64,000 nucleotides of DNA from Promethearchaeota archaeon (GCA_016839555.1 JAEOUA010000011.1:64001-128000); one strand, 5' to 3'; positions 20,292 through 52,206 are shown, counted from the first letter of the stretch. Translations and numbers: made by a program. Notes: generated by a model from the sequence alone, not told the origin.

Positions 20292-20464
20292 ATTCTAAAC
20301 TAGAAAAATATTTCTAATTTAAATAATCTTATATTCTCAAAATTTTACTTTCTTTTTTACTTTAGATCGAAGATTTTAAAACTTTTTAGAAAATTTTTCT
20401 TTAAATATGATTGAAAAATGATTGTTATAACAAAATAGAAATATTAATTAAAAAGATAAAGAAA

Positions 20465-20824
20465 ATGGAAGAAATATATATAGTTGAGGGCAAAAGTCAA
20501 GGAAAAAAATATGCCAAATATATATTCTATGGTATAATCGCGTTTTTAGCCATATACATGCCTTTTTTTGGAAGTGATCTAAGATATCAATTAGGAGCAA
20601 TCTTCGATATGGCTTTCAATATAATTGGTTGGTTTTGCGTTTTTGGGGGTATAATTTATATCCTTTTGGGAGTTTTGGGGCTATTTGGAAGAAATATCTT
20701 AATCGGAAGAATCATTATAGGAGCATTATTACTGTGGGTTGGTTGTTGGATGACGGGAATTGCTATTAATTTTTTTGGGGTTGATTTCGGAGGTTCATCT
20801 GCTTCATCTAAAGGATATCATTAA
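20465..20824 (+). CDS. Small Gly-rich membrane protein (about 3 TM)
   Basis: Hydrophobic helices; ATG 20465 preferred because the TTG at 20411 abuts the TATA element. Confidence 0.65.
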   Translation: MEEIYIVEGKSQGKKYAKYIFYGIIAFLAIYMPFFGSDLRYQLGAIFDMAFNIIGWFCVFGGIIYILLGVLGLFGRNILIGRIIIGALLLWVGCWMTGIAINFFGVDFGGSSASSKGYH

Positions 20825-20891
20825 AAAAAAGAGGTTCGCCGAAAAAAATCCCGCTTTTTTATTATTAAGTTTCTTTATTATATGCTGTAAA

Positions 20892-22046
20892 TTATAGATT
20901 CTTTTCAATTGCATCTAATTCCTTTAAGATCCACTTCTTAAACTTAGCAAAATCAGAAACAGAAGGGATTTTACCCTTCTCAGAAGAATCTTTAGCTACA
21001 TTTCTCTGATTAAATATTTTTGTATTCGTTTTTTTGGATTTAGAATCAATTGTGCCTGATATTAATTCAGTTATTATCTTTTGAGGGATTTTTAATTTTG
21101 TTAAAATTTCTTCGAATTCTATATAATCGTTTTCTTGTAATTCATATTTTGTTTGGTTCATTTTTATCCATTCCTCTAAAAAATCTTTTGGAATACCCTC
21201 CTTCCAATGATGTTTTCTAAGATAATTATATAATAATTGGGGAGAGTATAGTTCACTTAGTTCTAAATTACTCTTATTAACATGTTTATCTTGATATTCA
21301 TGAAGCGATTGGATGAATTCTTCTCTCAGCTTTTTATTATGATTAGTAATAATATCAAATTCTCCGGAGAAATCAATAATTTTCTCAGGGGGCTTATAAA
21401 ATCTTTTTCTTTTTGTTAAAATGTCCTCAGGGAGGGTTATATTATAATAATTTTTAGTAAATTCTAAAATTTTAGGAAATTCATCTTCATCATAATTCTT
21501 TAGTATTTTTGATAAATTAATCGAGTCGGGATTCTTATTTAATTCTATATATAATTGATTAGCGGTGATCTTGATGTTTTGAAGGTTGTCTCGAAGAATC
21601 TCAATATTATCTGCCAATGAAATCAAGATTTGCTCAAATTTTAAGTCAACATTACTAAAATCATAATTAAGGAATTTATCCGTCTTTTTATTGTAAAAAA
21701 TATAGTGATTATTACTCTCTGACAACAAATTAGTTATATTCTGATTCACATTAAGGATACAATGCACATCCTTCAATTCTAATAGGTCTTTCGCCTTTTT
21801 TTTGTCTAAATTATAAATTAAATAGAAATTTGGAGTATGAATATCTGAATAAGAATCATTTAATATGACTTCTTTAAGGTCATAAAGGGCGGTAGATTCT
21901 AAATCAATTAAATTATAGCCAATAGTAAAGACTTCTAATCCTCTAAGATTTTTTAAATCTACATAGGGATAAATTACCAGATTTTTTTGTTGAAAAAATA
22001 ATAAATGCAGGAATTCCGGTTTAATGAAATCGAATGCTGTATCCAT
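20892..22046 (-). CDS. Hypothetical protein
   Basis: 384-aa ORF with a GGAGG SD, downstream of the GTPase; no family recognised. Confidence 0.7.
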   Translation of the reverse strand: MDTAFDFIKPEFLHLLFFQQKNLVIYPYVDLKNLRGLEVFTIGYNLIDLESTALYDLKEVILNDSYSDIHTPNFYLIYNLDKKKAKDLLELKDVHCILNVNQNITNLLSESNNHYIFYNKKTDKFLNYDFSNVDLKFEQILISLADNIEILRDNLQNIKITANQLYIELNKNPDSINLSKILKNYDEDEFPKILEFTKNYYNITLPEDILTKRKRFYKPPEKIIDFSGEFDIITNHNKKLREEFIQSLHEYQDKHVNKSNLELSELYSPQLLYNYLRKHHWKEGIPKDFLEEWIKMNQTKYELQENDYIEFEEILTKLKIPQKIITELISGTIDSKSKKTNTKIFNQRNVAKDSSEKGKIPSVSDFAKFKKWILKELDAIEKNL

Positions 22047-22106
22047 TTGCCTCCCTTAATTGGTTGTTTAATTAATATTAGAATATATAAAAAGAACTTG
22101 AAATAA

Positions 22107-22763
22107 CTATTTGGAATTAAATACATTGAATAAAACTTGCCCTAATAAATCTCGAAAAGTTTCAGCAACATTCTTTCCTTTTAATGCAACAGTTCTATAC
22201 ACTACAAATGTTCCATCAGAATATTTCTCTTCTTGTGGTAATCCTAATTTCTTTTTAAACTCATCAATCTTAATTTTATTTTCTATATCTCTCTTATTAA
22301 GCTGAATAACATACGGAATTCTTCGCGGACTGGCGAAGCTGAGTAATTCACGAAAACTTCGTTTATTTTGTTCGAGCTTATCTTTCTCTGAATCTCCCAC
22401 AAATACGATTCCATCAGCTCCTTCCAAGACATATTCTCTAGTAGAAAGAAAACGCTCCTGACCCGTACAAGTGACGATATGAACAATAATAGTATAATCA
22501 ATACCATTCACGCTTGCTTCAAAAGATAGAAACATAGAATCCTGCCATAATGTTCTTCCATCTTCCGTTTCAATCGAATAGCCATCCGTAATACGATTAT
22601 GATCAAATTTCTCCTTCAACCTAAAAAAATTGGTAGTCTTTCCAGACTCTCCAGGACCCCAATACACAATTTTTAACTGAATAATATTTCCTAATAAAAT
22701 TCCTGTAGAATCTATAGATACTTCTGAACTTATATTTTCATTTTCTACGTGTTTTTTCATCAT
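22107..22763 (-). CDS. MglA/Rup-like small GTPase
   Basis: KIVYWGPGESGKTTN, GRTL, TCTGQ (MglA-type G3), GADGIVFV.DS, QLNKRD; ATG after a GGTGA SD. Confidence 0.9.
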   Translation of the reverse strand: MMKKHVENENISSEVSIDSTGILLGNIIQLKIVYWGPGESGKTTNFFRLKEKFDHNRITDGYSIETEDGRTLWQDSMFLSFEASVNGIDYTIIVHIVTCTGQERFLSTREYVLEGADGIVFVGDSEKDKLEQNKRSFRELLSFASPRRIPYVIQLNKRDIENKIKIDEFKKKLGLPQEEKYSDGTFVVYRTVALKGKNVAETFRDLLGQVLFNVFNSK

Positions 22764-22792
22764 TAATAAAATCACCTTTAAGTATAGGCTTA

Positions 22793-23338
22793 TTAAATAG
22801 TACCTATTTTATCGCCGAATAATTGTTTTTTCAATGTCTTGATATGATCTTTTAATTCATCTTCATTCATTTTTAACACATTTTTAATAGGGATAGAATT
22901 TTCAATTTCTCTTTTTATTGCTGTCGCAAATCGTTGCATCTGTAGGATTAATACACCAATGTTTACATTATTATCAGTTAAAAGAACAATGAGGATTTGT
23001 CGCTTTCTTTCGTTTCCAATATTTACATCAATAATGGATTTGACAAATAATCGCATATTATTGTAAATTATAGTGGCTCGATCTAAGTAATCCGCCTCGA
23101 AAAAATCTTGCCCTTGTCGTGCAACTCCGTATAATGCTGCTCCCAAGGAAGAGAGGTTCCAATAATTCAATCCTTTATCAAACTGAGGATCCAATGCGAT
23201 TATTTTGGCATCTTGATCAACAGCAATTAATCCATAGATATAACCTTTCCGCGTAAGTTTACCATAGCTCATTCTGATTTCGCTCAGAATATCGCTAATC
23301 GTATTTTCATATAATACTTTCGGAATTGTTTCTGTCAT
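22793..23338 (-). CDS. Roadblock/MglB-like protein
   Basis: GLIAVDQDAKII...LSSLGAALYGVA...NVNIGVLILQM roadblock-type pattern; directly upstream of the MglA-like gene. Confidence 0.7.
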   Translation of the reverse strand: MTETIPKVLYENTISDILSEIRMSYGKLTRKGYIYGLIAVDQDAKIIALDPQFDKGLNYWNLSSLGAALYGVARQGQDFFEADYLDRATIIYNNMRLFVKSIIDVNIGNERKRQILIVLLTDNNVNIGVLILQMQRFATAIKREIENSIPIKNVLKMNEDELKDHIKTLKKQLFGDKIGTI

Positions 23339-23496
23339 GTTCTCAACTCAAAACTTTTTTTGAAAGATATAAAAAATAAATCTATATAAAGAAAAAGTCG
23401 AAAATTATAATTTTTCATTTTTTGATTTTTTCCTTTAAATATAAATGAGAGATCAAAAGGGTATAATTTTTTAAAAACCAGTAAAATGGTGTTTAA

Positions 23497-24744
23497 ATGG
23501 TAGAAACAATTCCTACTGCATATATTCCAAAACAAAAAGTAATTTTAAGTGAAATTAATCCCCCATATGCACAAAATTTTATAAATCCATTCTTAGAATT
23601 CACTAATTTACATCTTTTTGAAGAATTCAAACTTGATGTAAATATTAGAAAGAAAATAAAAAATCGGAAAAACCCTACTTTAAAGTTGGCAGAACCTAAA
23701 CATGCTGAAACTATCGCTGAAATAGTAAAAGAAGACTATGAAGGGACATATCCTTATAAAGAGATGGAAGATCCTACTGAAATTAAAAAAATGATCAATT
23801 CAGGAAAATATAAATTTGTCTTATTTTTAAATGAAAAGAATGAAATTATGGGATCTACTTGTTTTGTTCTTAATTTAAAGGAAAAAAAAGGGTATCTACG
23901 GAGCCTAGTAGTGAGAAAAAAATCTCTTGGGATAGTTGATGCAACTAAAGCTTATGTTGGAAGTTGTTTGGCAATTTGGAATATGTTCAGAGATAAAATA
24001 TTAATTTGGTGGGGTGAAGCACGTACCGCAGATGCAAAATCCCAATATATCAATCGTTTATGTAGCGTTCGACCAATAGCATTTTTACCGAATAAGGATA
24101 TCTTTTATAATAAAATAGAATCAGATTTAGTAATGATTTCTTATGATGAGCGCGTTTTCAGAGAATTTCATAGCAAAAAAAGGCCTAGAATTATCCCTTG
24201 TGTTGCTGGATGCTTTTATTTCTCTAATATGCAATATGACTTAACTATACCCGAAATTATCTTTCCAAAGCTTAAAAAGGAAATGAATCCCTCAAAATTA
24301 ATAAAATTATTCAAAAATCTGAAAGTTCAAAAAACCGTGGATAAATTCAATTACATCACTTATAGATTTACTCTAAAAAACTCTAAATCTTATTTTAAAT
24401 TCTTATTTACACCTCGAGTTAACAATTTTGAGAAAACAGAATATAAAGTGAAGAATTTAGAGGAGTTATTTGTTTTTTTGCAGAAATTTAAAAAAATGGC
24501 GAGAAAACTGGATATTAGATATATGGAAGCGCTTGTTTCGGCTTATGAACCTTCCCATCAAATATTATTTAGAGATTTAGGATTAATTCCACGAGGCTAT
24601 ATCCCTGCATTTCAATATAATAAAAAAAAGAATCATTTTGAAGATTCAATTCTGTTTAATTATTATACAGGAACTCTTTCATATGAACCCGAATTAATTC
24701 CTGAGGGTAAGCAATTGTTAAAATTCTTAAATTTAAAGTTTTGA
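23497..24744 (+). CDS. Tandem GNAT-fold protein
   Basis: N-terminal KGYLRSLVVRKKSLG motif A and a C-terminal YMEALVSAY...LFRDLGLIPRGYIP GNAT-like end. Confidence 0.6.
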   Translation: MVETIPTAYIPKQKVILSEINPPYAQNFINPFLEFTNLHLFEEFKLDVNIRKKIKNRKNPTLKLAEPKHAETIAEIVKEDYEGTYPYKEMEDPTEIKKMINSGKYKFVLFLNEKNEIMGSTCFVLNLKEKKGYLRSLVVRKKSLGIVDATKAYVGSCLAIWNMFRDKILIWWGEARTADAKSQYINRLCSVRPIAFLPNKDIFYNKIESDLVMISYDERVFREFHSKKRPRIIPCVAGCFYFSNMQYDLTIPEIIFPKLKKEMNPSKLIKLFKNLKVQKTVDKFNYITYRFTLKNSKSYFKFLFTPRVNNFEKTEYKVKNLEELFVFLQKFKKMARKLDIRYMEALVSAYEPSHQILFRDLGLIPRGYIPAFQYNKKKNHFEDSILFNYYTGTLSYEPELIPEGKQLLKFLNLKF

Positions 24745-24845
24745 TAAAACTTTATCGTCATCTTTTTAATTTTTAATATATTTTAAAATTTTTTTTTGGA
24801 TTTTTTCTTTAAATATGAATAAAAAAAATATATGATAGAATTATT

Positions 24846-25256
24846 ATGACCCTCTTTAAAATAAATTATAGGTTGAGATCTATAAAAGATCCATTTAATT
24901 ATAGAGAAATAATCGAAAACATAGTATTAGACGAAAATACAGGTAAAGTCTTTTTAAAAGAATTCAAAAAAATTTTAAAAAACTTAGAATCTTTAAAAAT
25001 TGATAATAATATTAAAATTAAAAAACTGAAATATTTCCTGAAATCCTATAAATTAAAAGACATCAGTAATGAAACAAAAGAAATAATTATTAAGGCTCAT
25101 AGAAATATCGAAAATAAAAAAGGAGCTCTTAAGATTATAACAAATTTCAATTCAGATTTAAATCATATATCTAATAAAGATATATTTGATAAAGATTCAG
25201 AATTAAACTTTGATTCAAAAAGAATCCCTCTATTAATACCAGAAAAAATGCATTAA
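24846..25256 (+). CDS. Hypothetical protein
   Basis: 136-aa ORF preceded by the shared promoter element. Confidence 0.55.
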   Translation: MTLFKINYRLRSIKDPFNYREIIENIVLDENTGKVFLKEFKKILKNLESLKIDNNIKIKKLKYFLKSYKLKDISNETKEIIIKAHRNIENKKGALKIITNFNSDLNHISNKDIFDKDSELNFDSKRIPLLIPEKMH

Positions 25257-25513
25257 AAATATAGATATGATTTTTTTATTTTTATCTAATTTTTAACTAA
25301 TTTCTATAATAATTATAGAAAATTCTTTTTCTATATTTTGATTAAATTATGATAAAATTAATTTAAGATCTGAATTTAATGAAAAATTAGATTAAATATT
25401 TAATTTATAGCATAATTTATAAAGAAAGGACTTTAAAAACTTCTTTTGAAAATAAATTTAAAATAGAAAAAATTTTTAAAAAATTATAAATAATTAATAA
25501 GAAGTGATTTTAT

Positions 25514-26338
25514 TTGAATAAAAAAGAAAAATATTTAATTGGTATAATTTCACCAACGATTATTGGTTTAATAATAACTCTTATTCTTTTTATTGCCAAT
25601 TTAGACCCAATAATTAAAACCATTAATGCATATGAAGGAACTTGGATTATAATAGTAATAATAATAATAAGAATAATTTTATTAGCCGGAATGAGTGCAT
25701 ATATGTTTAAGCAATGGTTTAACCAAGAGCATCAATATTTATCAGATATTCCTTTTTTATTTGCACTATTCTTTTTACTTGTAATCTTCGGAAAATCTTT
25801 TGACTTACTTTATAATCTGACATATTATTTTACTGATAGATTCACTTTTTTGATAATACTAAAGGTTCGTTTCTTAATAGGAGCATTAAGTCTTTCCCCT
25901 ATGTATTATCTGAGCATAGGAATGATATTGTTTTTCTTGTCTCTTTATGAAAAATATAAGAAACTAGATGATAAGAAAGTTTCAAACCAAATCCAATTAA
26001 TTACTCTATCAATTATAATTCTTTTGATATCAGCGCTAATTATAATTTTTTTAGATGATGAAACTAATAAGATAATTTTACCTGCAATAGTAATCCCATC
26101 ATTCTTAACCATTGTTTTGATATTTTACTTCGCTTATAAAAACAAAAGATTGTCGCAAGTAAATCCCTTAATTCTGGCAATTGGATTTTCTGCATATTTA
26201 ATTTCTCAAATAATTAGACCAATTTTTCAAATAATTTTTGGAAATGAGGTGCCATTCATCTTTTTTTCAGAATTACTAGACCTGATTATCTATTTTGTTA
26301 TTTTTATTGGTTTAATAAAAAAAATAGAATATGATTAA
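25514..26338 (+). CDS. Hypothetical multi-TM membrane protein
   Basis: About 8 hydrophobic segments; TTG start 6 nt after a GAAGTGA SD. Confidence 0.65.
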   Translation: MNKKEKYLIGIISPTIIGLIITLILFIANLDPIIKTINAYEGTWIIIVIIIIRIILLAGMSAYMFKQWFNQEHQYLSDIPFLFALFFLLVIFGKSFDLLYNLTYYFTDRFTFLIILKVRFLIGALSLSPMYYLSIGMILFFLSLYEKYKKLDDKKVSNQIQLITLSIIILLISALIIIFLDDETNKIILPAIVIPSFLTIVLIFYFAYKNKRLSQVNPLILAIGFSAYLISQIIRPIFQIIFGNEVPFIFFSELLDLIIYFVIFIGLIKKIEYD

Positions 26339-26400
26339 AAATTAAATCTAAATATAATAATTTTTATTTAGTAATTTTTTATCATTTGTTAATCAATAAT

Positions 26401-27567
26401 TTAATTTCTAATTCTTTTTTGTAAAACAATATGTTTTCTAATTGGTTTTGAATGGGGAAAAATAGTTTTAATTGCTTTATCATTATTGGACCATATGGTA
26501 GTACCTTCCACATAGGTAATTCCATTCAATCCTGTGATAATTCTTCCAATATTATTTAATGCTGAGAATATACCTCTCCCAGCGTATTCTTTTCGTATCA
26601 TAACCGTATCAACATTTGCATCTATCAGAGGTAAGTTTTGCCAGATCTGATATAAATTCGGTAAAGACCATATAAATCCCACTATTTCTCCGGTTTTGCT
26701 ATCGAACGCAAAAGGAGCCCATGTTACCACTTTTTCTAAATCGCAAGATTTCATAGATTTAATAAAAATTGGGTTATCGGTATAGTCTTGAGGATTAAAA
26801 TCTTTGGGAAGCTTGTAATGTGAGGGAGGCACCATTTCATATAAGTGAAAGAATTCTTCAAGTCGCTTCTCCCCTCCTGATGCGTCTGCAAGTATCGTAT
26901 GAAAAGTATGCTGTGCCATTTCCATCATCTCTTCTTTTCGATCTCTCATTTCTGATATAGTAAGGTATTTTATTTCGATATCCCTTAGGTATCTATCACC
27001 TTTTTTCCACTTATCTTGGGTAACATAAACACAGGTATACTTTGACTCAATTTTATATCCTAATCTCTTTAAATAGTTTAATTCCTTCAAATCGGGATGA
27101 TTATATGCTACACCAGACATCATTTTATGCTTAAATCCTTCGGTCTGAAATCCGATTCCTCCAATTATTTTCGGAAAATTGATTGGTCCCCGAATTTTTC
27201 TGATATGATGCTCTTTAATGTAGCGTTCACAATTTTCTATTAATATTCTACAAGATGTGAAATCTAAGGCATTAAGCCAGCCAAATGTTCCGCATTTTCT
27301 TCCATAACTTTTATATTCTGTATCTATTTGACAAACTACGATTCCCGTTATTTTTTTTCCTTTTTTTGTAATAAATACTTTAATTTTGTAATCTTCTTCA
27401 TTAAATTTCTTTTGTAAATAATTAAGAAGATGAAAAATTACTTTTTTTTTTAATTTGTCCATTGGTACATAGAGTAATTCTTTGAAAGCACATCGTATTT
27501 GGCTAATATTTTTAGTATCAAAAACCTTAATAGAATAACTGATTTCTTCAACTATTTGTTGTGTCAT
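26401..27567 (-). CDS. Tandem GNAT N-acyltransferase (YghO-like)
   Basis: GTFGW, IRGPIN, YN.P...LKRLGY, LPNL, IRKEYAGRGI, TIWSNN. Confidence 0.75.
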   Translation of the reverse strand: MTQQIVEEISYSIKVFDTKNISQIRCAFKELLYVPMDKLKKKVIFHLLNYLQKKFNEEDYKIKVFITKKGKKITGIVVCQIDTEYKSYGRKCGTFGWLNALDFTSCRILIENCERYIKEHHIRKIRGPINFPKIIGGIGFQTEGFKHKMMSGVAYNHPDLKELNYLKRLGYKIESKYTCVYVTQDKWKKGDRYLRDIEIKYLTISEMRDRKEEMMEMAQHTFHTILADASGGEKRLEEFFHLYEMVPPSHYKLPKDFNPQDYTDNPIFIKSMKSCDLEKVVTWAPFAFDSKTGEIVGFIWSLPNLYQIWQNLPLIDANVDTVMIRKEYAGRGIFSALNNIGRIITGLNGITYVEGTTIWSNNDKAIKTIFPHSKPIRKHIVLQKRIRN

Positions 27568-27759
27568 TTAAAATCATTTTATATTTTATAAATTTGGAGA
27601 AAAAATTTTACATTCATATTTAAAGAAAAAATTTTAAAAATTTTTTATTTAAAAAAGAGTAAAAATTTGGAAAAATAGACAAAAATCATTATTTCAGATT
27701 TTTTCTTTAAATATACTTAAGAATAAAAACCATAAAAATAATAATATTAAGATAGGATT

Positions 27760-28914: not shown

Positions 28915-28984
28915 AAAATTTGTCTTCTCTATTTATATTACTTCAAATTTTTCAAATTTAGACATTTTTAAGAAATTTAAAAAC

Positions 28985-29701: not shown

Positions 29702-29750
29702 TAGTTATACTTATGATCTTTCTAATTAAATAAAATAAAGAATAAATATA

Positions 29751-38990: not shown

Positions 38991-38992
38991 TT

Positions 38993-41847: not shown

Positions 41848-41856
41848 TATGATTCA

Positions 41857-41937
41857 AACCAGAATAAGTTTTTATTCTGGTTATTACTTCCACTTTTTTT
41901 AATTTTTTCCTTTTCTTTCTTTTCTTTTTTCTCTTTT
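41857..41937 (+). terminator. Hairpin plus pyrimidine tracts after tfb
   Basis: AACCAGAATAA-gttt-TTATTCTGGTT (11-bp stem) followed by long T-rich runs. Confidence 0.6.
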
Positions 41938-42008
41938 AACATAACTATTTTTTCTTTAAATATTCGGAGAAAATATCCACTTAAATGAAATTTATATTTT
42001 AAATTAAA

Positions 42009-44975: not shown

Positions 44976-45076
44976 CTTCTAAGTTTTTTTTTCTTATTTT
45001 TTTATTTTTTCTTTTTATATTCTAATTGTTAATTAAATACATAGCATATAAGAATGAAATTAAATGATCATGGTCT

Positions 45077-45697
45077 ATGGAAGTTGCTAACAATAATAAA
45101 AAACAGGCAGTTTTTTCGAAAATAATTGCATTTATCGAGGCATTGAAAGCATTCGAGAATAATTATGATAAGAAGCTTAATATAAACAAATTATTTTCTT
45201 TAATGAGTGTCCCGGTTAATGATCGAAAAGTATATATTGATATTCTTCTGGAATTTCAAGAAATATTTCATAAGATATTAAAAGATTATGAATTAAATAT
45301 TATTGAAAAAGATGGATGCACCTATCTCAAAACAAAAAAAACACATTTTATTAAAAATCGCTTAGAAAATAATATTTCTCATAAAAAGGAAAATTTTACC
45401 GAAAAAATGGAATTATCTAAATCGGATTTAGTATTTTGGAATGATTTCATTTACTCATTTAAAAATGTCCGGAGAGGTAAGGGTTTCGATTTATCTCATA
45501 ATACTTCTGAAATCTGTAAAACTTTAGGGTTTCTGAAGCAAAAATATCCTTGTTTATTCTTTTCAAATGGCAATGGATTAGTATATCCTTCGAAATTTGG
45601 TGTTGAATTAGGTTCGAAAATTAATAGTTATATCAAGGTTAATCACGATTTTAAACAAATATTTTTATATGGCTGCAAAATAAGTATAAAAAAGTAA
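45077..45697 (+). CDS. Hypothetical protein (possible winged-helix)
   Basis: 206-aa ORF; YPCLF...NGLVYPSKFG.ELG looks like a wing motif. Confidence 0.6.
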   Translation: MEVANNNKKQAVFSKIIAFIEALKAFENNYDKKLNINKLFSLMSVPVNDRKVYIDILLEFQEIFHKILKDYELNIIEKDGCTYLKTKKTHFIKNRLENNISHKKENFTEKMELSKSDLVFWNDFIYSFKNVRRGKGFDLSHNTSEICKTLGFLKQKYPCLFFSNGNGLVYPSKFGVELGSKINSYIKVNHDFKQIFLYGCKISIKK

Positions 45698-45844
45698 AAA
45701 ATCTCCTTATTTTAAGTACCTTTCTATTCATTAATAAGATGGCTATTAAAGGACAATCACAATTCCAGCATACTCTGAATAAATTTTAGGAGTTGTATAT
45801 TTTTTCTTTTTATAAATTCATACGATATAATAAAGTAAATAAAA

Positions 45845-47941
45845 ATGAGCAATCTAAAAAGTAGGATTAGCGAAAACCAAATTGAGAATATGTTTTTAAA
45901 GACCGAAAATCTGGAATTCCGGCAATATCAATTAGCGATCGCCAATAAATGTGTTTCTAAAAATTCACTAGTGGTCTTACCGACTGGGTTAGGAAAGACT
46001 ATTGTTGCAGTACTAATTGCCGCGAAAACATTAGAGATTTCTCCGCCTAATAGCAAAATAATAGTGATGGCACCTACTAGACCGCTCATTAATCAACATT
46101 ACGACACATTTTTAGACTTTTTGACTGTTCCAGAATCTAAATTTTGTGTTTTAACGGGGAAGAATTCACCTGAAGTTAGACCTACTGAATTTTTAGATCA
46201 TCAGATTTTGTTTTTTACTCCGCAAACCTTACGTAATGATATCGTTTCGAAAAAATATGATTTAAAAAATGTATGTCTAATGATTTTCGATGAAGCACAC
46301 CATGCTTCGGGCGATTATCCTTATAATATATTAGCCGAGCAATATATTGAACAAAATCCAGATGGGACCATTTTAGCCTTAACTGCTTCTCCGGGAGCGA
46401 GTAAAGAAAAAATCACTGAATTATGTAAAGCGCTGTATATCCCTCCCGATAATATTCATATTCGAATAAGAAAGGATTTTGATGTGAAGAATTATATAAA
46501 GGCAATGGATATTTATAAGATCGGTGTAAATTTAACCTCCCTTATGGAAGCCGTGCGAAAAATTTTGTTTACTATTTTGGAAGAATGTTTACAATATCTT
46601 TCACGTTTGGGTTTTATTTCCATCAAATCTCCACAATTACATCAAAAGATTATTCGAAAAGATTTATTAGAACTGAATCGTAAATTAGTCTCGATAATTT
46701 CTGGAGAAGGAGATAAGACGGGAGCATATAAAGGACTTTCTGTGAACGCTCAGGGCCTTATTTTATTTCATATGTTAGAATTAGTAGAGCAACAGGGATT
46801 GGATGTCTTATTAAATTACTTGGAAAAGTTAATGCAAGATGCAAGAAAAAGAAATAGCTCTAAAGCGAACCGTATATTAGCCTCAGACAGTCGGATAAGA
46901 CGAATGCATCTAGAACTATTGAAAAGAAACGACTGCGAGCCGAATATTCTGATTCATCCTAAATTTCTCATTTTAAAAAATATCTTGCTTGATGAATTAA
47001 CGAAGAATCCAGACTCTCGGATCTTAGTGTTTGTCAAATTACGAGCCTCGGTAAAAAATATTGTTAAAAGACTTAAAACTTATGAAAAGATTAGAGCGAT
47101 TCGATTTGTGGGACAAACAACCAAGTCTAAGGATGATAAGGGGCTCACACAAACCAAACAACTCGAGATTCTTAAGAAGTTTAAAAAAGGAGAATATAAC
47201 GTATTAGTGGGTACCAATGTCGCTGAAGAGGGATTGGATATAGCCGAATGCGACTTAGTAATATTTTACGATGTTGTTGCATCAGAGATCCGCTTAATCC
47301 AGCGAAAAGGAAGGACTGCCCGCCATAGAGAAGGGAAAGTGATAATACTGTATTGTCGTAATACCAATGATGAGACATATTTATTGATTGCATTAAATCG
47401 TTTGAAACAAATGCAGAGCAATTTAAAAAAAGCACCAAAAAACTCTATTCCTACTGAAAAGGATATGACGCAATCGCACTTAGGAAAGTATATCAATGAC
47501 AAATCAAAACCACAAATTAAAAAAAAAAAGTCGACTCAAACAAATTTAAATGAATCTAAGATAGCTATAAGTTCAAAATTTCCTATGAAATATGGGCTTC
47601 GAAAAGATCTTTCAAAAGAAAATATTAGTTTTAATATTCAGAAGTCAGATTTTCATCTCATTCTTTTTAATAGAATACTGATTCAGGTCCTTAAACCCAC
47701 AGAATTTTTAGAAGCAAAATTGAAGGGAATAAATTCTAAACTTAAAAATAAATTTGAATTAATTGTATTTATTTTCGACTTCACAGAGTTTCACGAGTCT
47801 TTTACGAATGAGAAGCTTCTATTTAAGCAAAAATTACTGGATTTTGGTAGTAAACAAGATTTTCAAATAATACCTATTGATATACCTGAGGAGCTTTCTT
47901 TCATCGTCAAAAATATTTATCACCATAACAATAATAAGTAA
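45845..47941 (+). CDS. hef: Hef/FANCM/Mph1-family DEAH helicase with degenerate C-terminal ERCC4-like domain
   Basis: RQYQ, LPTGLGKT, APTRPL, TPQ, DEAHHA.G.Y, TASPG, HPK, FVGQ, EEGLDI, SEIRLIQRKGRTAR. Confidence 0.92.
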   Translation: MSNLKSRISENQIENMFLKTENLEFRQYQLAIANKCVSKNSLVVLPTGLGKTIVAVLIAAKTLEISPPNSKIIVMAPTRPLINQHYDTFLDFLTVPESKFCVLTGKNSPEVRPTEFLDHQILFFTPQTLRNDIVSKKYDLKNVCLMIFDEAHHASGDYPYNILAEQYIEQNPDGTILALTASPGASKEKITELCKALYIPPDNIHIRIRKDFDVKNYIKAMDIYKIGVNLTSLMEAVRKILFTILEECLQYLSRLGFISIKSPQLHQKIIRKDLLELNRKLVSIISGEGDKTGAYKGLSVNAQGLILFHMLELVEQQGLDVLLNYLEKLMQDARKRNSSKANRILASDSRIRRMHLELLKRNDCEPNILIHPKFLILKNILLDELTKNPDSRILVFVKLRASVKNIVKRLKTYEKIRAIRFVGQTTKSKDDKGLTQTKQLEILKKFKKGEYNVLVGTNVAEEGLDIAECDLVIFYDVVASEIRLIQRKGRTARHREGKVIILYCRNTNDETYLLIALNRLKQMQSNLKKAPKNSIPTEKDMTQSHLGKYINDKSKPQIKKKKSTQTNLNESKIAISSKFPMKYGLRKDLSKENISFNIQKSDFHLILFNRILIQVLKPTEFLEAKLKGINSKLKNKFELIVFIFDFTEFHESFTNEKLLFKQKLLDFGSKQDFQIIPIDIPEELSFIVKNIYHHNNNK

Positions 47942-47964
47942 GAAAATTCAGGAGGACATAATCG

Positions 47965-48498
47965 ATGATTGAAGAGCACAACAGCATTAAAAAAGACTCA
48001 AAACCTTATATTATATTTAAATGTTCCAAGTGTAAACAATATATGTATGTAAAGCCTACGCAAAAGACGAAAAAATGCTTAAGATGCGGAAGAACGCATA
48101 CAATTCAAAAGATTAAGAGGTTTAATGAGATTGAAATCGTGGAAGGAATGAGTGCGGCGGTACAACGCGTAAAAGAATTGCAAAACCAATATGCAATAGA
48201 AAAATTACAAGGAGTCCTCAATCTAAAGGGTGAAGATAGTTTTTCTATTGTTGTTCATAAAAAAAAAGTCTATTTAAATGAATTTGAAACAATTTGTATG
48301 AATAAATCTTTGGAAAAAAGATTTATTGACTTATTACAAGATCTCTCAAAAAAATATAGTCAATTTCCGAGATATATGATTGAACTGGTAGCGGAAGAAT
48401 ACAACATTGAAAAAAAAGAAATTGAATTGCTGATTCGTCAGTTTCTCGATCAAAAAAAATTAATTTCGCTCAATAACAATTACTTTACAATCAATTAA
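47965..48498 (+). CDS. DUF1922-like zinc-ribbon protein with a C-terminal winged-helix-like segment
   Basis: YIIFKCSKC...TKKCLRCG; GGAGG SD; co-oriented downstream of hef. Confidence 0.7.
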   Translation: MIEEHNSIKKDSKPYIIFKCSKCKQYMYVKPTQKTKKCLRCGRTHTIQKIKRFNEIEIVEGMSAAVQRVKELQNQYAIEKLQGVLNLKGEDSFSIVVHKKKVYLNEFETICMNKSLEKRFIDLLQDLSKKYSQFPRYMIELVAEEYNIEKKEIELLIRQFLDQKKLISLNNNYFTIN

Positions 48499-48532
48499 TA
48501 AAAATTAAAAATTAATAAAAAAATATAGTAAT

Positions 48533-48706
48533 TTAAAAAATGGATCGAGCTTTTTTCTTTAGTTCTCTAAGCCTCTGCTTATATTCTGGACATTCTTTAT
48601 AGTTTGGAAACTTGCAAATTGTTTCGGACTGCGGCATGATACAACTCTGATCAAAGGGGCAATAGAGAATATGCGCCTTAAAGCCTGCCTTCCCGTGCGA
48701 ACTCAT
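48533..48706 (-). CDS. Small 57-aa four-cysteine protein (absent from the ORF track)
   Basis: MSSHGKAGFKAHILYCPFDQSCIMPQSETICKFPNYKECPEYKQRLRELKKKARSIF*; TATA element about 21 nt upstream. Confidence 0.65.
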   Translation of the reverse strand: MSSHGKAGFKAHILYCPFDQSCIMPQSETICKFPNYKECPEYKQRLRELKKKARSIF

Positions 48707-48813
48707 AATGTTTATAATTTTATATATATATTTAAATGAAAACTAGATCCCATACTTTTAAATCTGAATGAGCCATATGAAAAAGTGATTTATTTAAAAT
48801 TATACAAGAGTTA

Positions 48814-49011
48814 TTATTCCAATTCTTTTTTAAGCTGATTTATATGTTCTTCGGTTAATGTTTGCAAGTTGGTTGAATCATTGCTTTCCTTAAAAATTGA
48901 GAAAGAAATAAAGATTTTTCTTCTTAAATAATTCAGAATTGAACTGAAATCCTTATCATGAATTTCCCTTTTTCTTTGAAATCCATTCTTTTCTTTAAGT
49001 TTACTGCTCAT
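48814..49011 (-). CDS. Small hypothetical protein
   Basis: 65 aa; the shared promoter element lies about 22 nt upstream. Confidence 0.5.
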   Translation of the reverse strand: MSSKLKEKNGFQRKREIHDKDFSSILNYLRRKIFISFSIFKESNDSTNLQTLTEEHINQLKKELE

Positions 49012-49054
49012 ATATCCAATATCAATCCAATGTATTTAAAAGAAAAAATAATTT

Positions 49055-49342
49055 TTATCCCGTTTCTTGCATTTTTTTGAGATATAATTTCATAAAATAG
49101 CGCTGGCTCTTGCAGTAGTCCCGTCTTTGAGCATCCGTAATACTTTTACTATTTAAGAGGATATTAAGTTGCTTAAGGATTGTAAGATATTCTTGAGTGG
49201 TTCTCTTAGGCTCTCGTTTTATTTTAATATCAATTTTTCCTTTTAAAAAAGTTTGCGATGATGAAGTTTGAGGAATGGTAAATGAGAATTTTTCTTTCTT
49301 TTTTTCATCTTTTTCAACCCCAAAGTCGGAATCTAATGACAT
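49055..49342 (-). CDS. Small hypothetical protein
   Basis: 95-aa ORF downstream of the helicase, same strand. Confidence 0.55.
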   Translation of the reverse strand: MSLDSDFGVEKDEKKKEKFSFTIPQTSSSQTFLKGKIDIKIKREPKRTTQEYLTILKQLNILLNSKSITDAQRRDYCKSQRYFMKLYLKKMQETG

Positions 49343-49416
49343 TATAAAATATAAAAATTTGATAATTATATTGACTCTATTCTATATACACCAGCAACAA
49401 ATAAAAAGAAAAAATT

Positions 49417-51963
49417 TTACTTTTTAGGAAACGTTTTTATAGCACTTTCTATAATACTTTTACAGAGTTTTACACCAAGCCCCGTCTTATGATGTAAATG
49501 GTAGGGAGTATCTTTTGCTACTTGTTCGGAGGTGTGATAGCCTGCAGTAAACAAAATTCTGCCTCGTACCCGTGCCACGTGTTTTAGTCGTAGAATCAAA
49601 TCGAATAATTCTTCTTTTATCCCATAATGAATGCGAATTCGAAGCGTCTCACACATCTCGGCGATCTTTTCCATATCATTCTGGATATCTCTTCCGGAGG
49701 AACTTAGATGTTCAGCGATAATACCAATAAAGGTGATAATACGCTCTAAATTATCTTTCACCGACATTAAATCGCCCGCCATAATATTATGTCTTTCCAA
49801 AATGTCTTCTAAAGTCACTTCATCTGCCCATTCGATAATGGGCTCCAAAAATTTGCGATTCCTAACCTTCCTTTCTGAGAGAAGAATATCATAAGCTTCC
49901 TGAATGAGATCTTGGTATGATTCTATTAGCCGATTTTCCAATTTACTTCGAATAAGAACACCAGATACAGGATAGAGATAAAGTCGAATAATCAGTTTTC
50001 CAAATTGCGAGCATTTCACTGTAGAATCAGAATTTTTAAGGATCAATCCCTTTTCAAAAAGATAATTGAGGATATACTGACTTTTAATGCATTTCGGAAG
50101 AATATTATTTACGTATTTTTGCACCCGTTTATCGGGGATCTGAAGCAAATACAGCAAGAAAGCGGTAATATGATCGCAAAACTCAAATGCAAACTTATTA
50201 TCCACGAAATTATCGGAAATACCGTTTTTGAATCCGCAAGAACATCGAATCCCTTTTTCAATATTAAAATCACAATAAAAAACCCCATAGCAAGATTTAA
50301 TATAGCCCGCAATTGTTTCTCCGCTGAGCTTAGTAATTTTGATTTGATTATCTTGCTTTCTCATTTTTTTTACTTGGTTTGGATTAGAATGAAGTTTTAG
50401 AATATTTAAGGGATTTATCTCTTCAATTAATAACAGTTGTTCTATTGGAAGGGGATGCTTCATTTTATGCTCAATTATATACCAAAAATAAGTTTTTCTA
50501 AAAAATGATTTCAAAGCCTCCAAAGTAATATTTTTTTCTTCATACACCCTCAGTAATACTTGTTCTTTCAAAGTATTAATGTCATTTAATCCTGATTTTA
50601 AATCTTCATATTTTGGTAGGAGTTTATTAGCAGATACGTCCATATTAAAAAAATGATCTTCAATCCACATCTTTTCTTCTATATTATTAACAAGGATTAT
50701 ACCGTAGCCCACGGTATCTAATCCTGGACGTCCAGCTCTTCCCAACATCTGAAATACCTCATTGGATGAAAAAGGCAAAAAATAAGAAAAGCCATCGCCG
50801 TTTTCGTAAAATCCCTTAAAATTGCTAATATTATATCCTGACGTCACATAGCGTTTAAAGTCTTTTAAAATAACTACGCGAGCAGGGACATTTACCCCAG
50901 CAGCTAATGTAGTGGTACAACATATAACTTTGAGAATTCGCCTTCGATAATTATCTTCCACTAACTTTCTTTCCTTGGGTAATAATCCAGCATGATGAAA
51001 AGCAATCCCATATTCCACTAATTTGCGGAGTTCTTTATTACCTCCTCGAAGATTATCCAATTTCTCCGAGATTTCCTTACAGATAGCTGCTTCATTTTCT
51101 TCTAAGAAATGGTGGGAAATAGATTTAAGCAAAGAGGCAGTTTTTTGAGTAGCTTTTCTAGTTCTTACAAAAATCAACACTTGTCCTTTATTCTCCAATG
51201 TTTTTTTGGTATAGCGCTGTATAGTAGATTTTTTATTCTGCGACACTTCTATCTGAAAATGAAGCGGTACAGGACGTTTATCTGAAGTAATGAGAATTGT
51301 TTTGTTGCCTAAAGAATTTAGCCACGAGTTAAAGAATTTCGGGTTGTTAATGGTCGCCGAAAGACCAATGATTTGCGGGGAATTTAAGATTTCGTTTAAT
51401 CTCACAATCAGAGATTCTAATCGGGGACCTCGGGAATTTTCTCCAATAAAGTGGATCTCATCAATTATAATAGTAGCAATATCGAAAATCCATTCTTTAT
51501 CGTAAAAATTGCGAATAATAGAATCCATTTTTTCATAGGTGGTTACAATTATATCCGCTTTTTCTAATTTAGAATCATCTACATCATAATCTCCAATAGA
51601 TAATTCGATATTTACTCTAAAACGAGAATATAATGTTTTAAAGTGAAAATATTTTTCTGTGGCAAGTGCTTTATAGGGTACCAAATAGATGGATTTGCCA
51701 AACTCTTGAAAAATATTATATATCGCACAGATCTCACCTATCAATGTTTTTCCACTCCCCGAAGGTGCGCAGATGAGAAAGGATTTGCGGAAAAACAGTC
51801 CTTTTTGGATAGCTTCTTTTTGTATTTTCCGCAATTCGAAAATTTTGGATTCTAATAGAACTCGTAAGATTCGATCATCCGGAATGAGCTTAAAGATCTC
51901 TTTTTCTTCAAGATCCTCCAATTGCTTTTCTTGGTCTGAATCAGTATAATCTAAAATAGTCAT
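49417..51963 (-). CDS. Hel308/Ski2-like SF2 helicase with an inserted SWIM zinc finger
   Basis: APSGSGKT, VPYKALA.EK, TYEK, DEIH, RGPRLE, LSAT, HHAGL, TLAAGVNVPA, QMLGRAGRPG; insert CSC...FCDH. Confidence 0.92.
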   Translation of the reverse strand: MTILDYTDSDQEKQLEDLEEKEIFKLIPDDRILRVLLESKIFELRKIQKEAIQKGLFFRKSFLICAPSGSGKTLIGEICAIYNIFQEFGKSIYLVPYKALATEKYFHFKTLYSRFRVNIELSIGDYDVDDSKLEKADIIVTTYEKMDSIIRNFYDKEWIFDIATIIIDEIHFIGENSRGPRLESLIVRLNEILNSPQIIGLSATINNPKFFNSWLNSLGNKTILITSDKRPVPLHFQIEVSQNKKSTIQRYTKKTLENKGQVLIFVRTRKATQKTASLLKSISHHFLEENEAAICKEISEKLDNLRGGNKELRKLVEYGIAFHHAGLLPKERKLVEDNYRRRILKVICCTTTLAAGVNVPARVVILKDFKRYVTSGYNISNFKGFYENGDGFSYFLPFSSNEVFQMLGRAGRPGLDTVGYGIILVNNIEEKMWIEDHFFNMDVSANKLLPKYEDLKSGLNDINTLKEQVLLRVYEEKNITLEALKSFFRKTYFWYIIEHKMKHPLPIEQLLLIEEINPLNILKLHSNPNQVKKMRKQDNQIKITKLSGETIAGYIKSCYGVFYCDFNIEKGIRCSCGFKNGISDNFVDNKFAFEFCDHITAFLLYLLQIPDKRVQKYVNNILPKCIKSQYILNYLFEKGLILKNSDSTVKCSQFGKLIIRLYLYPVSGVLIRSKLENRLIESYQDLIQEAYDILLSERKVRNRKFLEPIIEWADEVTLEDILERHNIMAGDLMSVKDNLERIITFIGIIAEHLSSSGRDIQNDMEKIAEMCETLRIRIHYGIKEELFDLILRLKHVARVRGRILFTAGYHTSEQVAKDTPYHLHHKTGLGVKLCKSIIESAIKTFPKK

Positions 51964-52206
51964 ATAAAAAAAATTTATTAAATAGAATGAATTGAGATGA
52001 AAATCATATTTATTGAGACTATTTAAACAAAAAGAGAAATATTTTTTTTATTGTTGATAATATCTCTCTCTCACGCAATACTTTTTTGAAAATTTAATGC
52101 GAAATTTCATATAAAAAAGGAATAGAATGTTTTAATTTTATCAAGTCGGTTTCATGCATTTTTTAATTTTTCCTTTAAATATAGTCAATTAATTGTAGTA
52201 TTAATT

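What the first reader, a model, noticed from the sequence alone, without database searches (positions are those of the whole stretch)
20394..52182. Island-wide non-canonical promoter: a T-tract replaces the BRE in front of the TATA box at ~19 genes
Seen: TTTTT(T)C(C)TTTAAATA occurs near-identically upstream of the genes starting at 20465, 23497, 24846, 27567(-), 27760, 33192, 38122(-), 42009 and 52207. Close variants precede 23338 (roadblock/MglA), 31296 (RPA operon), 32775, 33064, 36480 (radA), 40160 (M50 protease/RadB-like), 45845 (hef), 48706, 49011 and 51963 (Hel308). All are correctly oriented. Several sit 21-25 nt from the ATG, which is the spacing expected for leaderless archaeal transcripts. 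Other genes in the window have purine-rich BRE-TATA instead (CGAAAAGG-TTTTATAA at 36660; CGATAGC-TTTATAAA at ~40498 for tfb itself). I did not see the element before genes in 1-19 kb. Established: the archaeal BRE is purine-rich and is read by the HTH in TFB's second cyclin repeat. Inference: the divergent TFB at 40594 acts like an alternative sigma factor and switches on this whole gene set.
Basis: partly seen in the sequence, partly recalled or inferred. Interest (0 to 1): 0.92.

Follow-up and report, generated by a model that had tools for sequence, protein, structure and literature searches.

The report
T-tract promoter regulon in a Lokiarchaeon
About twenty transcription units in a 40-kb gene cluster of an Asgard (Lokiarchaeial) genome share a promoter that has a run of T's plus a C where the usual purine-rich BRE sits, and this promoter type, the cluster and a very divergent TFB-like factor encoded inside it are conserved together across a whole family, which suggests, but does not prove, a sigma-factor-like switch.

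Summary
The exact 15-mer (T5-Y-Y + TTTAAATA) occurs 17 times in the 3.74-Mb genome, and 8 of those lie in the 33-kb island, where 0.15 are expected. About 21 of about 25 transcription units between 20.39 and 59.8 kb start with it or a close variant. No gene in 1-19 kb does.

It looks like a real promoter. The TATA box is canonical, and an initiator-like T-A sits 22 nt after it. The distance to the ATG peaks at 21-24 nt (leaderless) and at 45-57 nt.

The cluster and the motif are conserved before orthologous genes in at least 12 related genomes of five other genera, with protein identity down to 24-40%. They also recur at a paralogous mini-cluster on another contig. The element is therefore a family-wide regulon signal. 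It is not a terminator, a composition effect or a strain-specific mobile element.

The gene at 40594 is a true TFB homologue with a Zn ribbon and two cyclin repeats. Its BRE-recognition helix is rewritten: both invariant Arg are replaced by invariant Gln. The gene lacks the motif and has its own conserved promoter element.

That this protein reads the T-tract is supported only by linkage, co-distribution and the altered helix. No binding or transcript data could be obtained.

The parts
20393..59773 (.). The conserved gene cluster ('island'). It has about 25 transcription units, about 21 of which carry the T-tract promoter. The edges are sharp: a 3-dehydroquinate synthase II gene ends at 20273 on the left, and a 738-nt gap follows 59773 on the right.
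20393..20407 (+). T-tract promoter of 20465 (119 aa, unknown function)
   Evidence: 22.5 bits
23380..23400 (-). T-tract promoter of the operon 23338-20892 (181-aa protein, Arf/Ras-like GTPase, 384-aa protein)
   Evidence: 20.9 bits
23427..23441 (+). T-tract promoter of 23497 (415 aa)
24801..24815 (+). T-tract promoter of 24846 (136 aa)
   Evidence: 25.3 bits
27617..27631 (-). T-tract promoter of 27567 (388 aa)
27699..27713 (+). T-tract promoter of 27760 (PP-loop ATPase-like, 384 aa)
31346..31360 (-). T-tract promoter (A at -1) of the operon 31296-28985 (208-aa protein, OB-fold RPA-like protein, metallo-beta-lactamase)
32797..32811 (-). T-tract promoter of 32775 (74 aa), probably with the FEN1-like gene 32500-31403. 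It lies 21 nt from the ATG.
33085..33105 (-). T-tract promoter (G at -1) of 33064 (73-aa Zn-ribbon protein), 23 nt from the ATG
33131..33145 (+). T-tract promoter of 33192-34623 (Zn-ribbon protein plus a 374-aa protein)
36543..36557 (-). Variant (TTTATATA box) before the accessory RadA paralog 36480-35233
38180..38194 (-). T-tract promoter of 38122 (125 aa)
40172..40193 (-). Weak variant before the operon 40160-38244 (M50B-like peptidase, 119-aa protein, KaiC/RadB-like ATPase). The orthologues have strong copies 21 nt from the ATG. Coordinates are approximate.
40594..41847 (+). Divergent TFB-like protein (417 aa): Zn ribbon, two cyclin repeats, a rewritten HTH recognition helix (residues 274-283) and a tail of about 100 aa. 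It has no T-tract promoter.
40470..40593 (+). The TFB-like gene's own promoter and leader: an A-rich BRE, TTTATAAA, and a conserved AACTCCTWCC element just after the TATA box. It is about 97% identical in relatives whose protein is 70-83% identical.
41948..41962 (+). T-tract promoter of 42009 (988 aa, prenyltransferase-like toroid domain)
45002..45022 (+). Variant (TTTTTATA box) before 45077 (206 aa). Coordinates are approximate.
   Evidence: 14.0 bits
45797..45817 (+). Variant before 45845 (Hef-like helicase plus a DUF1922 protein). Coordinates are approximate.
   Evidence: 11.8 bits
49033..49047 (-). Variant before 49011 (65 aa), 21 nt from the ATG
52017..52037 (-). T-tract promoter (G at -1) of the Hel308-like helicase 51963-49417
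52167..52181 (+). T-tract promoter of the five-gene operon 52207-59773 (membrane proteins plus a 1287-aa protein with a HerA/VirB4-fold domain)

Best explanation
The element is a specialised basal promoter. It consists of an A, six T's and a C directly abutting a consensus TATA box, with transcription starting about 22 nt after the box. This promoter marks a conserved regulon in one family of Lokiarchaeia. The regulon contains accessory paralogs of RadA, RPA, FEN1, Hef and Hel308, a membrane operon with a HerA/VirB4-fold protein, a small GTPase module, and many proteins of unknown function. The most likely reader of the T-tract is the cluster's own divergent TFB paralog (40594). It keeps the Zn ribbon, the B-reader-like segment and both cyclin repeats, but its BRE-recognition helix carries Gln and Ser where canonical TFBs carry Arg and Val. 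This TFB gene is transcribed from an ordinary A-rich BRE/TATA promoter that has its own conserved control element. Whatever induces the TFB gene would therefore switch on the whole set, much as an alternative sigma factor does. Shown: the motif, its specificity, its promoter-like geometry, its conservation, and the fold and helix change of the TFB. Inferred: that this TFB binds the T-tract, that the set is co-induced, and the biological role of the set (possibly DNA transfer or recombination).
For: Motif statistics. Ten of the sites lie in divergent spacers. Aligning 116 sites from this genome and its relatives at the motif gives 98-100% T at -6 to -3, 69% C at -1 and 65% A at -8. It shows no other conserved upstream position. 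A is found 22 nt after the box in 75-78% of sites, and T followed by a purine in 50% of sites against 20% at generic TATA-like octamers (p = 1e-10). Generic promoters are A-biased at the BRE position, and TTTTTC before a TATA box shows no sense-strand bias outside the cluster. The motif and its spacing are conserved before orthologues in G003, G005, G007, G013, G029, G033, G046, G054, G058, G060, G074, G076 and two metagenome contigs. The paralogous cluster on C7 has its own TFB-like copy and the motif. TFB-like fold: phmmer against PDB TFIIB gives 1e-4; NCBIfam TFB gives 2.6e-6; the AF2 core has pLDDT 80-90; all top Foldseek hits are TFIIB/TFB/Brf; hhalign against this genome's TFBs gives 98% probability and E = 4e-14 over 265 columns. 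Nine of the ten canonical TFBs match TEVT-x-R-x-R by pattern search (the tenth was not inspected), whereas the TFB-like family keeps an almost invariant M-S-T-I-Q-x-Q-V. The full-length TFB-like orthologues lack the motif in all 14 loci examined, while a shorter second copy in G033/G007 carries a weak one. The TFB-like family was found in 51 of 66 genomes of the same family and in 1 of 14 from other families. Motif counts against the reversed control were 558 to 194 in the family and 28 to 32 outside it.
Against: Fifteen of 66 same-family genomes gave no TFB-like match, yet as a group they still show a two-fold motif excess. G037 (99% complete) has strong motif copies before homologues of 33499 and 23497 but no detectable TFB-like gene. 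Assembly gaps are a possible cause, because the neighbouring gene is also missing or begins at a contig edge. Two further TFB-like paralogs in this genome (C1:138793 and C11:280241) are not surrounded by T-tract promoters. The motif weight matrix was trained on island sites, so scores within the genome are partly circular. The exact-pattern counts and the relatives are the independent support. Related genomes are not statistically independent.
Confidence: 0.5

Rival explanations
1. The promoter class and the regulon are the same, but the T-tract plus C is the site of a separate sequence-specific regulator (a repressor or activator sitting on the BRE position). Initiation then uses a housekeeping TFB. 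The TFB-like protein is only another member of the cluster, or it acts without reading the T-tract, as Sulfolobus TFB3 does.
For: The motif excess persists in same-family genomes where no TFB-like gene was found. The genome has ten canonical TFBs and many small Zn-ribbon proteins in the cluster that could bind DNA. Two TFB-like paralogs are not linked to the motif.
Against: The element is asymmetric, has no dyad, and always directly abuts the TATA box at a fixed register. No second conserved block appears upstream. This pattern is typical of a core-promoter element read by the pre-initiation complex and is not typical of an operator. All nine canonical TFBs that match the pattern share the same Arg-bearing recognition helix. 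The strongest conservation, at -6 to -3, lies where the TFB HTH contacts DNA in solved TBP-TFB-DNA complexes (general knowledge of PDB 1D3U, not tested here).
Confidence: 0.28
2. The T-tract acts through DNA shape alone. A rigid tract that excludes histones would make these promoters strong and constitutive with the ordinary factors, so there would be no dedicated reader and no switch.
For: Oligo(dA:dT) tracts disfavour wrapping around histones (general knowledge), and Asgard archaea have histones. The motif is short and AT-rich.
Against: The motif is restricted to one gene set and its paralogs and is not found on housekeeping genes. The C at -1 and the A at -8 are conserved across genera. There is no motif excess in sister families of similar base composition.
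Confidence: 0.08
3. The cluster is, or descends from, a mobile element or virus whose genes carry element-specific promoters.
For: The repair genes are extra, divergent paralogs of chromosomal genes. A HerA/VirB4-fold membrane protein is present. A second partial copy of the gene set lies on another contig. Many of the genes have no known family.
Against: There is no tRNA gene in the window and no integrase or transposase family among the Pfam hits. The ten unknown proteins tested had no PHROG hit. PADLOC gave only generic helicase and PP-loop similarity. The cluster is syntenic in five other genera at 24-76% protein identity and lies inside a 1.18-Mb contig. Its GC content is like that of the rest of the genome. 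An ancient origin of this kind is not excluded, and it would not contradict the regulon reading.
Confidence: 0.07
4. The T-runs are oligo-T terminators of upstream genes, or a by-product of the 30% GC composition, that happen to lie next to TATA boxes.
For: Some copies follow a co-oriented gene (for example 24801 after 24744 and 41948 after 41847). These could also help to stop read-through.
Against: Ten copies lie in divergent spacers, where no gene ends upstream. Dinucleotide shuffles give 2.6 matches against 18 observed. The reversed-pattern control is three-fold lower across the family. The register to the TATA box is fixed and the C is conserved.
Confidence: 0.02

Closest known systems
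Alternative TFB paralogs of Halobacterium/Haloferax (TfbA-G) and their partly distinct regulons
   Same: The genome carries several TFB paralogs (ten canonical plus four TFB-like). The idea is the same: a paralog directs RNA polymerase to a subset of promoters.
   Different: To my knowledge, haloarchaeal paralogs keep the canonical recognition helix, and their promoters differ only subtly. Here the helix is rewritten and the BRE position holds the opposite base class. The target genes are also clustered around the factor gene.
Sulfolobus TFB2 (cell-division wave) and TFB3 (UV response, Ups pili and Ced DNA import)
   Same: A TFB paralog drives a discrete programme. The TFB3 regulon combines a membrane DNA-transfer machine with a HerA-superfamily ATPase (CedB) and DNA-damage genes. 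That content resembles this cluster's HerA/VirB4-fold operon plus recombination paralogs.
   Different: TFB2-bound promoters are reported to have BREs similar to those of TFB1 promoters (bioRxiv 10.64898/2026.09.06.749720, read). TFB3 lacks the DNA-binding core (general knowledge). The protein here is full length with both cyclin repeats, and a distinct cis element accompanies it.
Bacterial alternative sigma-factor regulons, such as the competence sigma ComX with its cin-box
   Same: One dedicated initiation factor, one distinctive core-promoter element and a compact gene set that includes recombination and DNA-handling proteins. The factor gene itself is under separate control.
   Different: The machinery is unrelated (TBP/TFB against sigma). 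This is an analogy of logic only.
Canonical archaeal BRE-TATA promoter
   Same: An 8-bp TATA box matching the consensus. An initiator-like T-A lies at the canonical distance, with AT-rich positions around -10.
   Different: The 8 bp upstream of the TATA box are A, six T's and a C. Generic promoters, as well as the neighbouring genes at 36746 and 40594, have an A/G-rich BRE at that position.

Membership tests
TFB/TFIIB family (protein 40594) | N-terminal Zn ribbon with four Cys | tested here: met
   C19, C22, C36 and C39 are invariant in 26 homologues. The segment aligns to the ribbon of canonical TFBs. Pfam Zn_Ribbon_TF is only faint, at E = 1e-3.
TFB/TFIIB family (protein 40594) | Two cyclin-fold repeats forming the core domain | tested here: met
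   The AF2 model has helices at 97-189 and 200-311 with pLDDT 80-90. Foldseek aligns about 196 columns to the TFB cores 1d3u_B and 1ais_B, and all top hits are TFIIB/TFB/Brf. hhalign gives 98.2% probability.
TFB/TFIIB family (protein 40594) | Reaches the curated Pfam TFIIB (PF00382) score | tested here: not met
   There was no PF00382 hit at E <= 1e-3. The gene is not among the 20 PF00382 matches in the genome.
TFB/TFIIB family (protein 40594) | C-terminal HTH with the canonical BRE-reading residues (T-E-V-T-x-R-x-R) | tested here: not met
   The HTH helices are present, but the aligned residues are Q-M-S-T-I-Q-S-Q. The substitutions are conserved across the TFB-like family.
TFB/TFIIB family (protein 40594) | Binds TBP on the TATA box and recruits RNA polymerase | not testable with these tools
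   This needs biochemistry. TBP is not assembled in this genome, although it was found in 11 of 12 relatives searched.
Archaeal core promoter | TATA box about 22-30 nt before the transcription start, with an initiator | tested here: inconclusive
   The sequence signal is present: A at +22 after the box in 75-78% of sites, and the ATG lies at 21-24 nt in 31 of 116 sites. No mapped TSS is available.
Archaeal core promoter | Purine-rich BRE directly upstream of the TATA box | tested here: not met
   T is 98-100% at -6 to -3. Generic promoters of this genome are A-biased at those positions.
Intrinsic oligo-T terminator | Lies downstream of a co-oriented gene's stop codon | tested here: not met
   Ten sites lie in divergent spacers.
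Integrated mobile element or provirus | Integrase, tRNA target, viral hallmark genes, patchy presence among close relatives | tested here: not met
   No tRNA gene in the window. No integrase family among the Pfam hits. No PHROG hits in the ten unknown proteins tested. The cluster is syntenic across six genera. Flanking direct repeats were not searched for.
HerA/VirB4 (FtsK-HerA) ATPases (protein 55511, residues 520-1100) | HerA/VirB4 fold | tested here: met
   AF2 pLDDT is 82. Foldseek matches HerA 4d2i at E = 2e-12 and VirB4 4ag5 at TM 0.64. The nearest named Atlas clusters are DUF87/HerA/CedB.
HerA/VirB4 (FtsK-HerA) ATPases (protein 55511, residues 520-1100) | Walker A P-loop (G-x4-G-K-S/T) | tested here: not met
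   No G-K-S/T was seen at the expected strand-helix junction when reading the sequence and the family consensus. There was no Pfam hit. The judgement was made by eye.

The most novel reading that the evidence does not exclude
The 410-440-aa TFB-like family of Lokiarchaeia is a true alternative initiation factor whose rewritten recognition helix (Arg to Gln) reads a T-tract in place of the BRE. Induction of this factor switches on a dedicated programme of DNA transfer and recombination, comprising a HerA/VirB4-fold membrane machine and accessory RadA, RPA, FEN1, Hef and Hel308 paralogs. That would be the first clear case of a TFB paralog with its own, categorically different core-promoter code. 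It would be found in the closest archaeal relatives of eukaryotes and would be a functional analogue of a competence sigma regulon.
Probability: 0.3. Interest if true: 0.9.

Novelty: new variant of a known kind. Interest (0 to 1): 0.72.

Why it matters
Whether archaeal TFB paralogs can act like sigma factors, each with its own promoter code, has been debated since multiple TFBs were found in haloarchaea. Clear paralog-specific BREs have been hard to show. This case pairs a sharply different cis element with a TFB whose DNA-reading helix is changed at the positions known to set BRE specificity. The two travel together across a family of Asgard archaea. That makes the question directly testable with a few recombinant proteins and one promoter fragment. 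The finding also defines a regulon of about 40 genes, most of unknown function. It includes accessory recombination proteins and a novel membrane complex with a HerA/VirB4-fold protein, in the lineage closest to eukaryotes.

Tried and rejected
(1) A ZOOPS expectation-maximisation search for the generic promoter drifted to GC-rich noise and was dropped. tRNA upstream regions were too few (12 genes found) to give a consensus. The generic BRE bias was estimated from sense-versus-antisense comparisons instead.

No RNA evidence was obtained, and read laying was not used.

(3) Complex prediction with TBP from a same-genus genome plus the TFB-like core returned 'no answer' (score 0.00, controls not run). 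It counts neither for nor against binding.

(4) Pfam at relaxed thresholds, NCBIfam, PHROGs and PADLOC on the unknown cluster proteins gave nothing beyond generic helicase, PP-loop and Zn-ribbon similarity.

(5) Transitive Pfam annotation of distant homologues of 55511 was uninformative. The fold search settled that question.

(6) Covariation between variants of the TFB-like helix and motif variants was examined. Genus g4 has N-Y in the helix where other genera have Q-S, and it has more A at -1. However, the C7 cluster of this genome also prefers A at -1 with an unchanged helix, so no conclusion is possible.

(7) The leader of 40594 does not form a notably stable RNA structure (z = -1.3). Rfam found nothing in the window.

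(8) Literature searches of the held library found no description of this motif or of the TFB-like family.

Full report
SETTING. The window is G000:C11:64001-128000 of a 3.74-Mb assembly in 12 contigs with about 30% GC. The assembly is 92% complete with 6% contamination. Named homologues of the protein at 40594 in public data are almost all labelled Promethearchaeota (Asgard/Lokiarchaeia), with one labelled Hodarchaeales. I called genes with a simple longest-ORF procedure, so individual start codons may be off.

Genome-wide, the two 32-kb bins of this window are the richest of 110 bins. Of the 17 exact copies in the genome, 8 lie in the 33-kb island, where 0.15 are expected. Of the 31 copies of the 14-mer, 9 lie there. 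These nine are all intergenic, all point at a gene, and end 25-57 nt before its start codon. Most of the other 22 are inside coding sequence or far from any gene start. I built a 21-nt weight matrix from 14 island sites. Only 21 positions in the genome score at least 18 bits while also being intergenic and within 100 nt of a start codon, and 14 of them are the island seed sites themselves. Gene by gene, the left edge is sharp. Nothing in 1-19 kb, which holds metabolic genes, scores above 8.7 bits. From 20393 onward nearly every transcription unit carries the element. Weaker variants, with a TTTTTATA or TTTATATA box or one extra T, precede radA (36480), 40160, 45077, 45845, 48706, 49011 and 49342. 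Four units lack the element: 25514, 34772, 36746 and the TFB-like gene 40594. The unit at 52207 is a five-gene operon that ends at 59773, so the cluster is about 40 kb long.

IT BEHAVES LIKE A PROMOTER, NOT A TERMINATOR OR A COMPOSITION EFFECT. Ten copies lie in divergent spacers, where no gene ends upstream. I aligned 116 sites from this genome and its relatives at the motif. The conserved block is A (65%) at -8, T at -7 to -2 (98-100% at -6 to -3), C (69%) at -1, and then the 8-bp TATA box. Nothing further upstream is conserved. Downstream there are weaker signals at +13 and at +18/+19. A clear T-A follows at +28/+29 counted from the first T of the box, which is 22 nt after the box ends. A at that position occurs in 75% of sites even after removing the sites where it is the A of an ATG. 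T followed by a purine occurs in 50% of sites, against 20% at generic TATA-like octamers (Fisher p = 1e-10). The distance from the box to the start codon has one peak at 21-24 nt, implying leaderless or near-leaderless mRNAs, and another at 45-57 nt. This is the canonical archaeal geometry. No mapped transcript ends were available.

IT DIFFERS FROM THE GENOME'S ORDINARY PROMOTERS. Around TATA-like octamers upstream of genes outside the cluster, the six preceding bases are A-biased on the sense strand. For example, ATAAAA occurs 14 times in sense orientation against 0 in antisense, and A is 45-52% at -3 to -6 against 37-40% in antisense. TTTTTC occurs 7 times in sense orientation and 9 times in antisense. 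The generic signal is noisy because the spacers are very AT-rich.

THE CLUSTER AND ITS PROMOTER ARE OLD AND CONSERVED. Two metagenome contigs carry the same gene order, with TFB-like proteins 83% and 70% identical to the one here. One of these contigs is 1.18 Mb long. In both, the motif precedes the same genes. I fetched the neighbourhoods of the TFB-like gene in 12 species-representative genomes from six genera of the same family. Orthologues of 22793, 23497, 26401, 30670, 33192, 37745, 39414, 42009, 52207 and others, at 24-76% protein identity, are again preceded by the motif, often at the same distance. For example, it lies 21 nt before the 39414 orthologue in eight of the ten loci holding one. 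A second, partial copy of the gene set lies at C7:144-168 kb. It holds paralogs of 20465, 22107, 39414, 40594, 42009 and 55511, and carries the same promoter, mostly with A at -1. A few single genes elsewhere carry it too, including a paralog of 24846 at C11:137029. Among 81 genomes of the class, the exact pattern outnumbers its reversed control 558 to 194 within the family. In the other four families the counts are 28 to 32.

WHAT THE GENES ARE. Pfam identifies the following:
- an Arf/Ras-like GTPase (22107);
- a metallo-beta-lactamase (28985);
- an OB-fold RPA-like protein (29751);
- a FEN1/XPG nuclease (31403);
- a Rad51/RadA protein (35233-36480);
- a KaiC/RadB-like ATPase (38244);
- an M50B-like peptidase (39414);
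- a 988-aa protein with a prenyltransferase-like toroid domain (42009);
- a Hef-like helicase (45845) followed by a DUF1922 protein;
- a Hel308-like helicase (49417).

About half of the products match no family. The repair genes are extra paralogs. The genome has two other RadA genes with the standard architecture and higher Rad51 scores (307-310 bits against 237), plus further FEN1, Hef and Hel308 homologues. Residues 520-1100 of the 1287-aa product of 55511 fold with pLDDT 82. The best structural matches are HerA (E = 2e-12) and VirB4 (TM 0.64). The Atlas search also points to DUF87/HerA/CedB clusters. I saw no P-loop in the sequence. No tRNA gene, integrase, viral family or defence-system match supports a mobile element.

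THE TFB-LIKE PROTEIN. The genome has ten canonical TFBs, found by PF00382. None of them is 40594, which reaches only a faint Zn-ribbon hit in Pfam. It is nevertheless a TFB homologue:
- phmmer matches TFIIB structures over residues 92-187 (E = 1e-4);
- the NCBIfam TFB model matches residues 14-190;
- the AF2 model shows a ribbon, two five-helix repeats and a disordered tail;
- all top Foldseek hits are TFIIB, TFB or Brf;
- a profile-profile comparison with six of this genome's TFBs gives 98% probability over 265 columns, from the ribbon to the C-terminal HTH.

In that alignment the canonical recognition helix T-E-V-T-L-R-S-R faces Q-M-S-T-I-Q-S-Q. The two arginines are invariant in the six aligned canonical TFBs. 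In the TFB-like family they are replaced by glutamines that are present in at least 90% of 26 sequences. From general knowledge of the TFIIB/TFB-BRE structures and mutants, the equivalent Val and Arg set BRE specificity, and Gln often reads adenine. That argument is inference.

The TFB-like family occurs in 51 of 66 genomes of the same family and in 1 of 14 genomes from other families. Its gene sits between the 39414 operon and the 42009 gene in the relatives examined. Its full-length orthologues lack the T-tract promoter in all 14 loci.

Its own upstream region is unusually constrained. The last 125 nt are about 97% identical in relatives whose protein is only 70-83% identical. Across genera the region keeps an A-rich BRE, a TATA box and the element AACTCCTWCC just after the box. 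In this genome that 10-mer occurs in gene-proximal spacers only three times. Each occurrence is upstream of a TFB-like gene or of the operon that contains one.

WEIGHING THE MECHANISM. I regard it as close to certain that this is a dedicated core-promoter class marking a conserved regulon. That the clustered TFB-like protein reads it is the best single hypothesis. The evidence is conserved linkage, matching taxonomic distribution, a changed but conserved recognition helix, the fixed register of the element against the TATA box, and the separate control of the factor gene. None of this is direct.

Three observations count against it. First, 15 same-family genomes gave no TFB-like match, yet as a group they show a two-fold motif excess. 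One nearly complete genome has strong motif copies but no detectable TFB-like gene, although the neighbouring gene is also missing there and assemblies are fragmented. Second, two TFB-like paralogs in this genome sit among ordinary promoters. Third, related genomes are not independent samples.

A separate regulator bound at the BRE position is the main rival. Shape-only effects, a mobile-element origin and terminators are less likely, for the reasons given under the rival explanations. The function of the regulon, possibly DNA transfer or uptake coupled to recombination by analogy with the Sulfolobus TFB3/Ced/Ups response, is a guess based on gene content.

COMPARISON WITH WHAT IS KNOWN. Paralog-specific regulons are known for haloarchaeal TFBs and for Sulfolobus TFB2 and TFB3. 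For TFB2, the BREs of target promoters were reported to look like those of TFB1 targets (bioRxiv 10.64898/2026.09.06.749720). I found nothing in the held literature on a T-tract BRE replacement or on this TFB-like family. I therefore rate the finding a new variant of a known kind. Other first-stage readers of this scan had already noted the same motif and the altered helix. I tested both claims here.

Noticed in passing
window 40470-40593; also C7:168588 and C11:279088 in the same genome: The TFB-like genes have their own conserved promoter signature: an A-rich BRE, TTTAWAAA, then AACTCCTWCC 2-4 nt after the box. The 125 nt before 40594 are about 97% identical in relatives whose protein is only 70-83% identical. 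In this genome the 10-mer occurs in gene-proximal spacers only three times, each upstream of a TFB-like gene or of the operon that contains one. It is possibly an operator or a downstream-BRE-like element.
   Followed up: partly
window 55511-59374: A 1287-aa membrane-anchored protein whose residues 520-1100 have a HerA/VirB4 fold (Foldseek E = 2e-12) but show no recognisable Walker A loop. It is the fourth gene of a five-gene operon. It belongs to a family with 145 cluster representatives, many of them about 1250-1300 aa.
   Followed up: partly
window 35233-36480 (-): The RadA paralog in the cluster has its helix-hairpin-helix domain at the C-terminus (residues 360-414), after the Rad51 ATPase domain (81-316). 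The two other RadA genes of the genome (C2:42041 and C3:49766) have the usual N-terminal HhH. Its ORF begins with GTG, and the orthologues are also 415 aa.
   Followed up: partly
whole genome (G000): The genome has ten canonical TFB genes, each with two PF00382 repeats, plus four TFB-like genes of 410-434 aa. No TBP (PF00352) was found in this assembly, although 11 of 12 relatives searched have 1-4 copies. This is probably an assembly gap.
   Followed up: partly
C1:138793-140994 and C11:279269-281545 (outside the window): Two copies of a three-gene operon (117 aa, 177 aa, TFB-like). The first two proteins are 83-85% identical between the copies, but the TFB-like proteins are only about 46% identical. 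Their recognition helix has Arg where the island type has the second Gln.
   Followed up: no
window 48560-48706 (-): A small Cys-rich ORF of about 48 aa, not found by the ORF filter. It is preceded by a T-tract/TATA variant 22 nt from its ATG.
   Followed up: no
window 41848-44975 and C7:162863-167125: The large protein that follows the TFB-like gene in most relatives examined (988 aa here, 1420 aa in the C7 copy) has only a prenyltransferase-like alpha-alpha toroid match. Its function is unknown.
   Followed up: no
I found no Pfam hit for the ORF 60512-60943 and did not pursue it.
   Followed up: no
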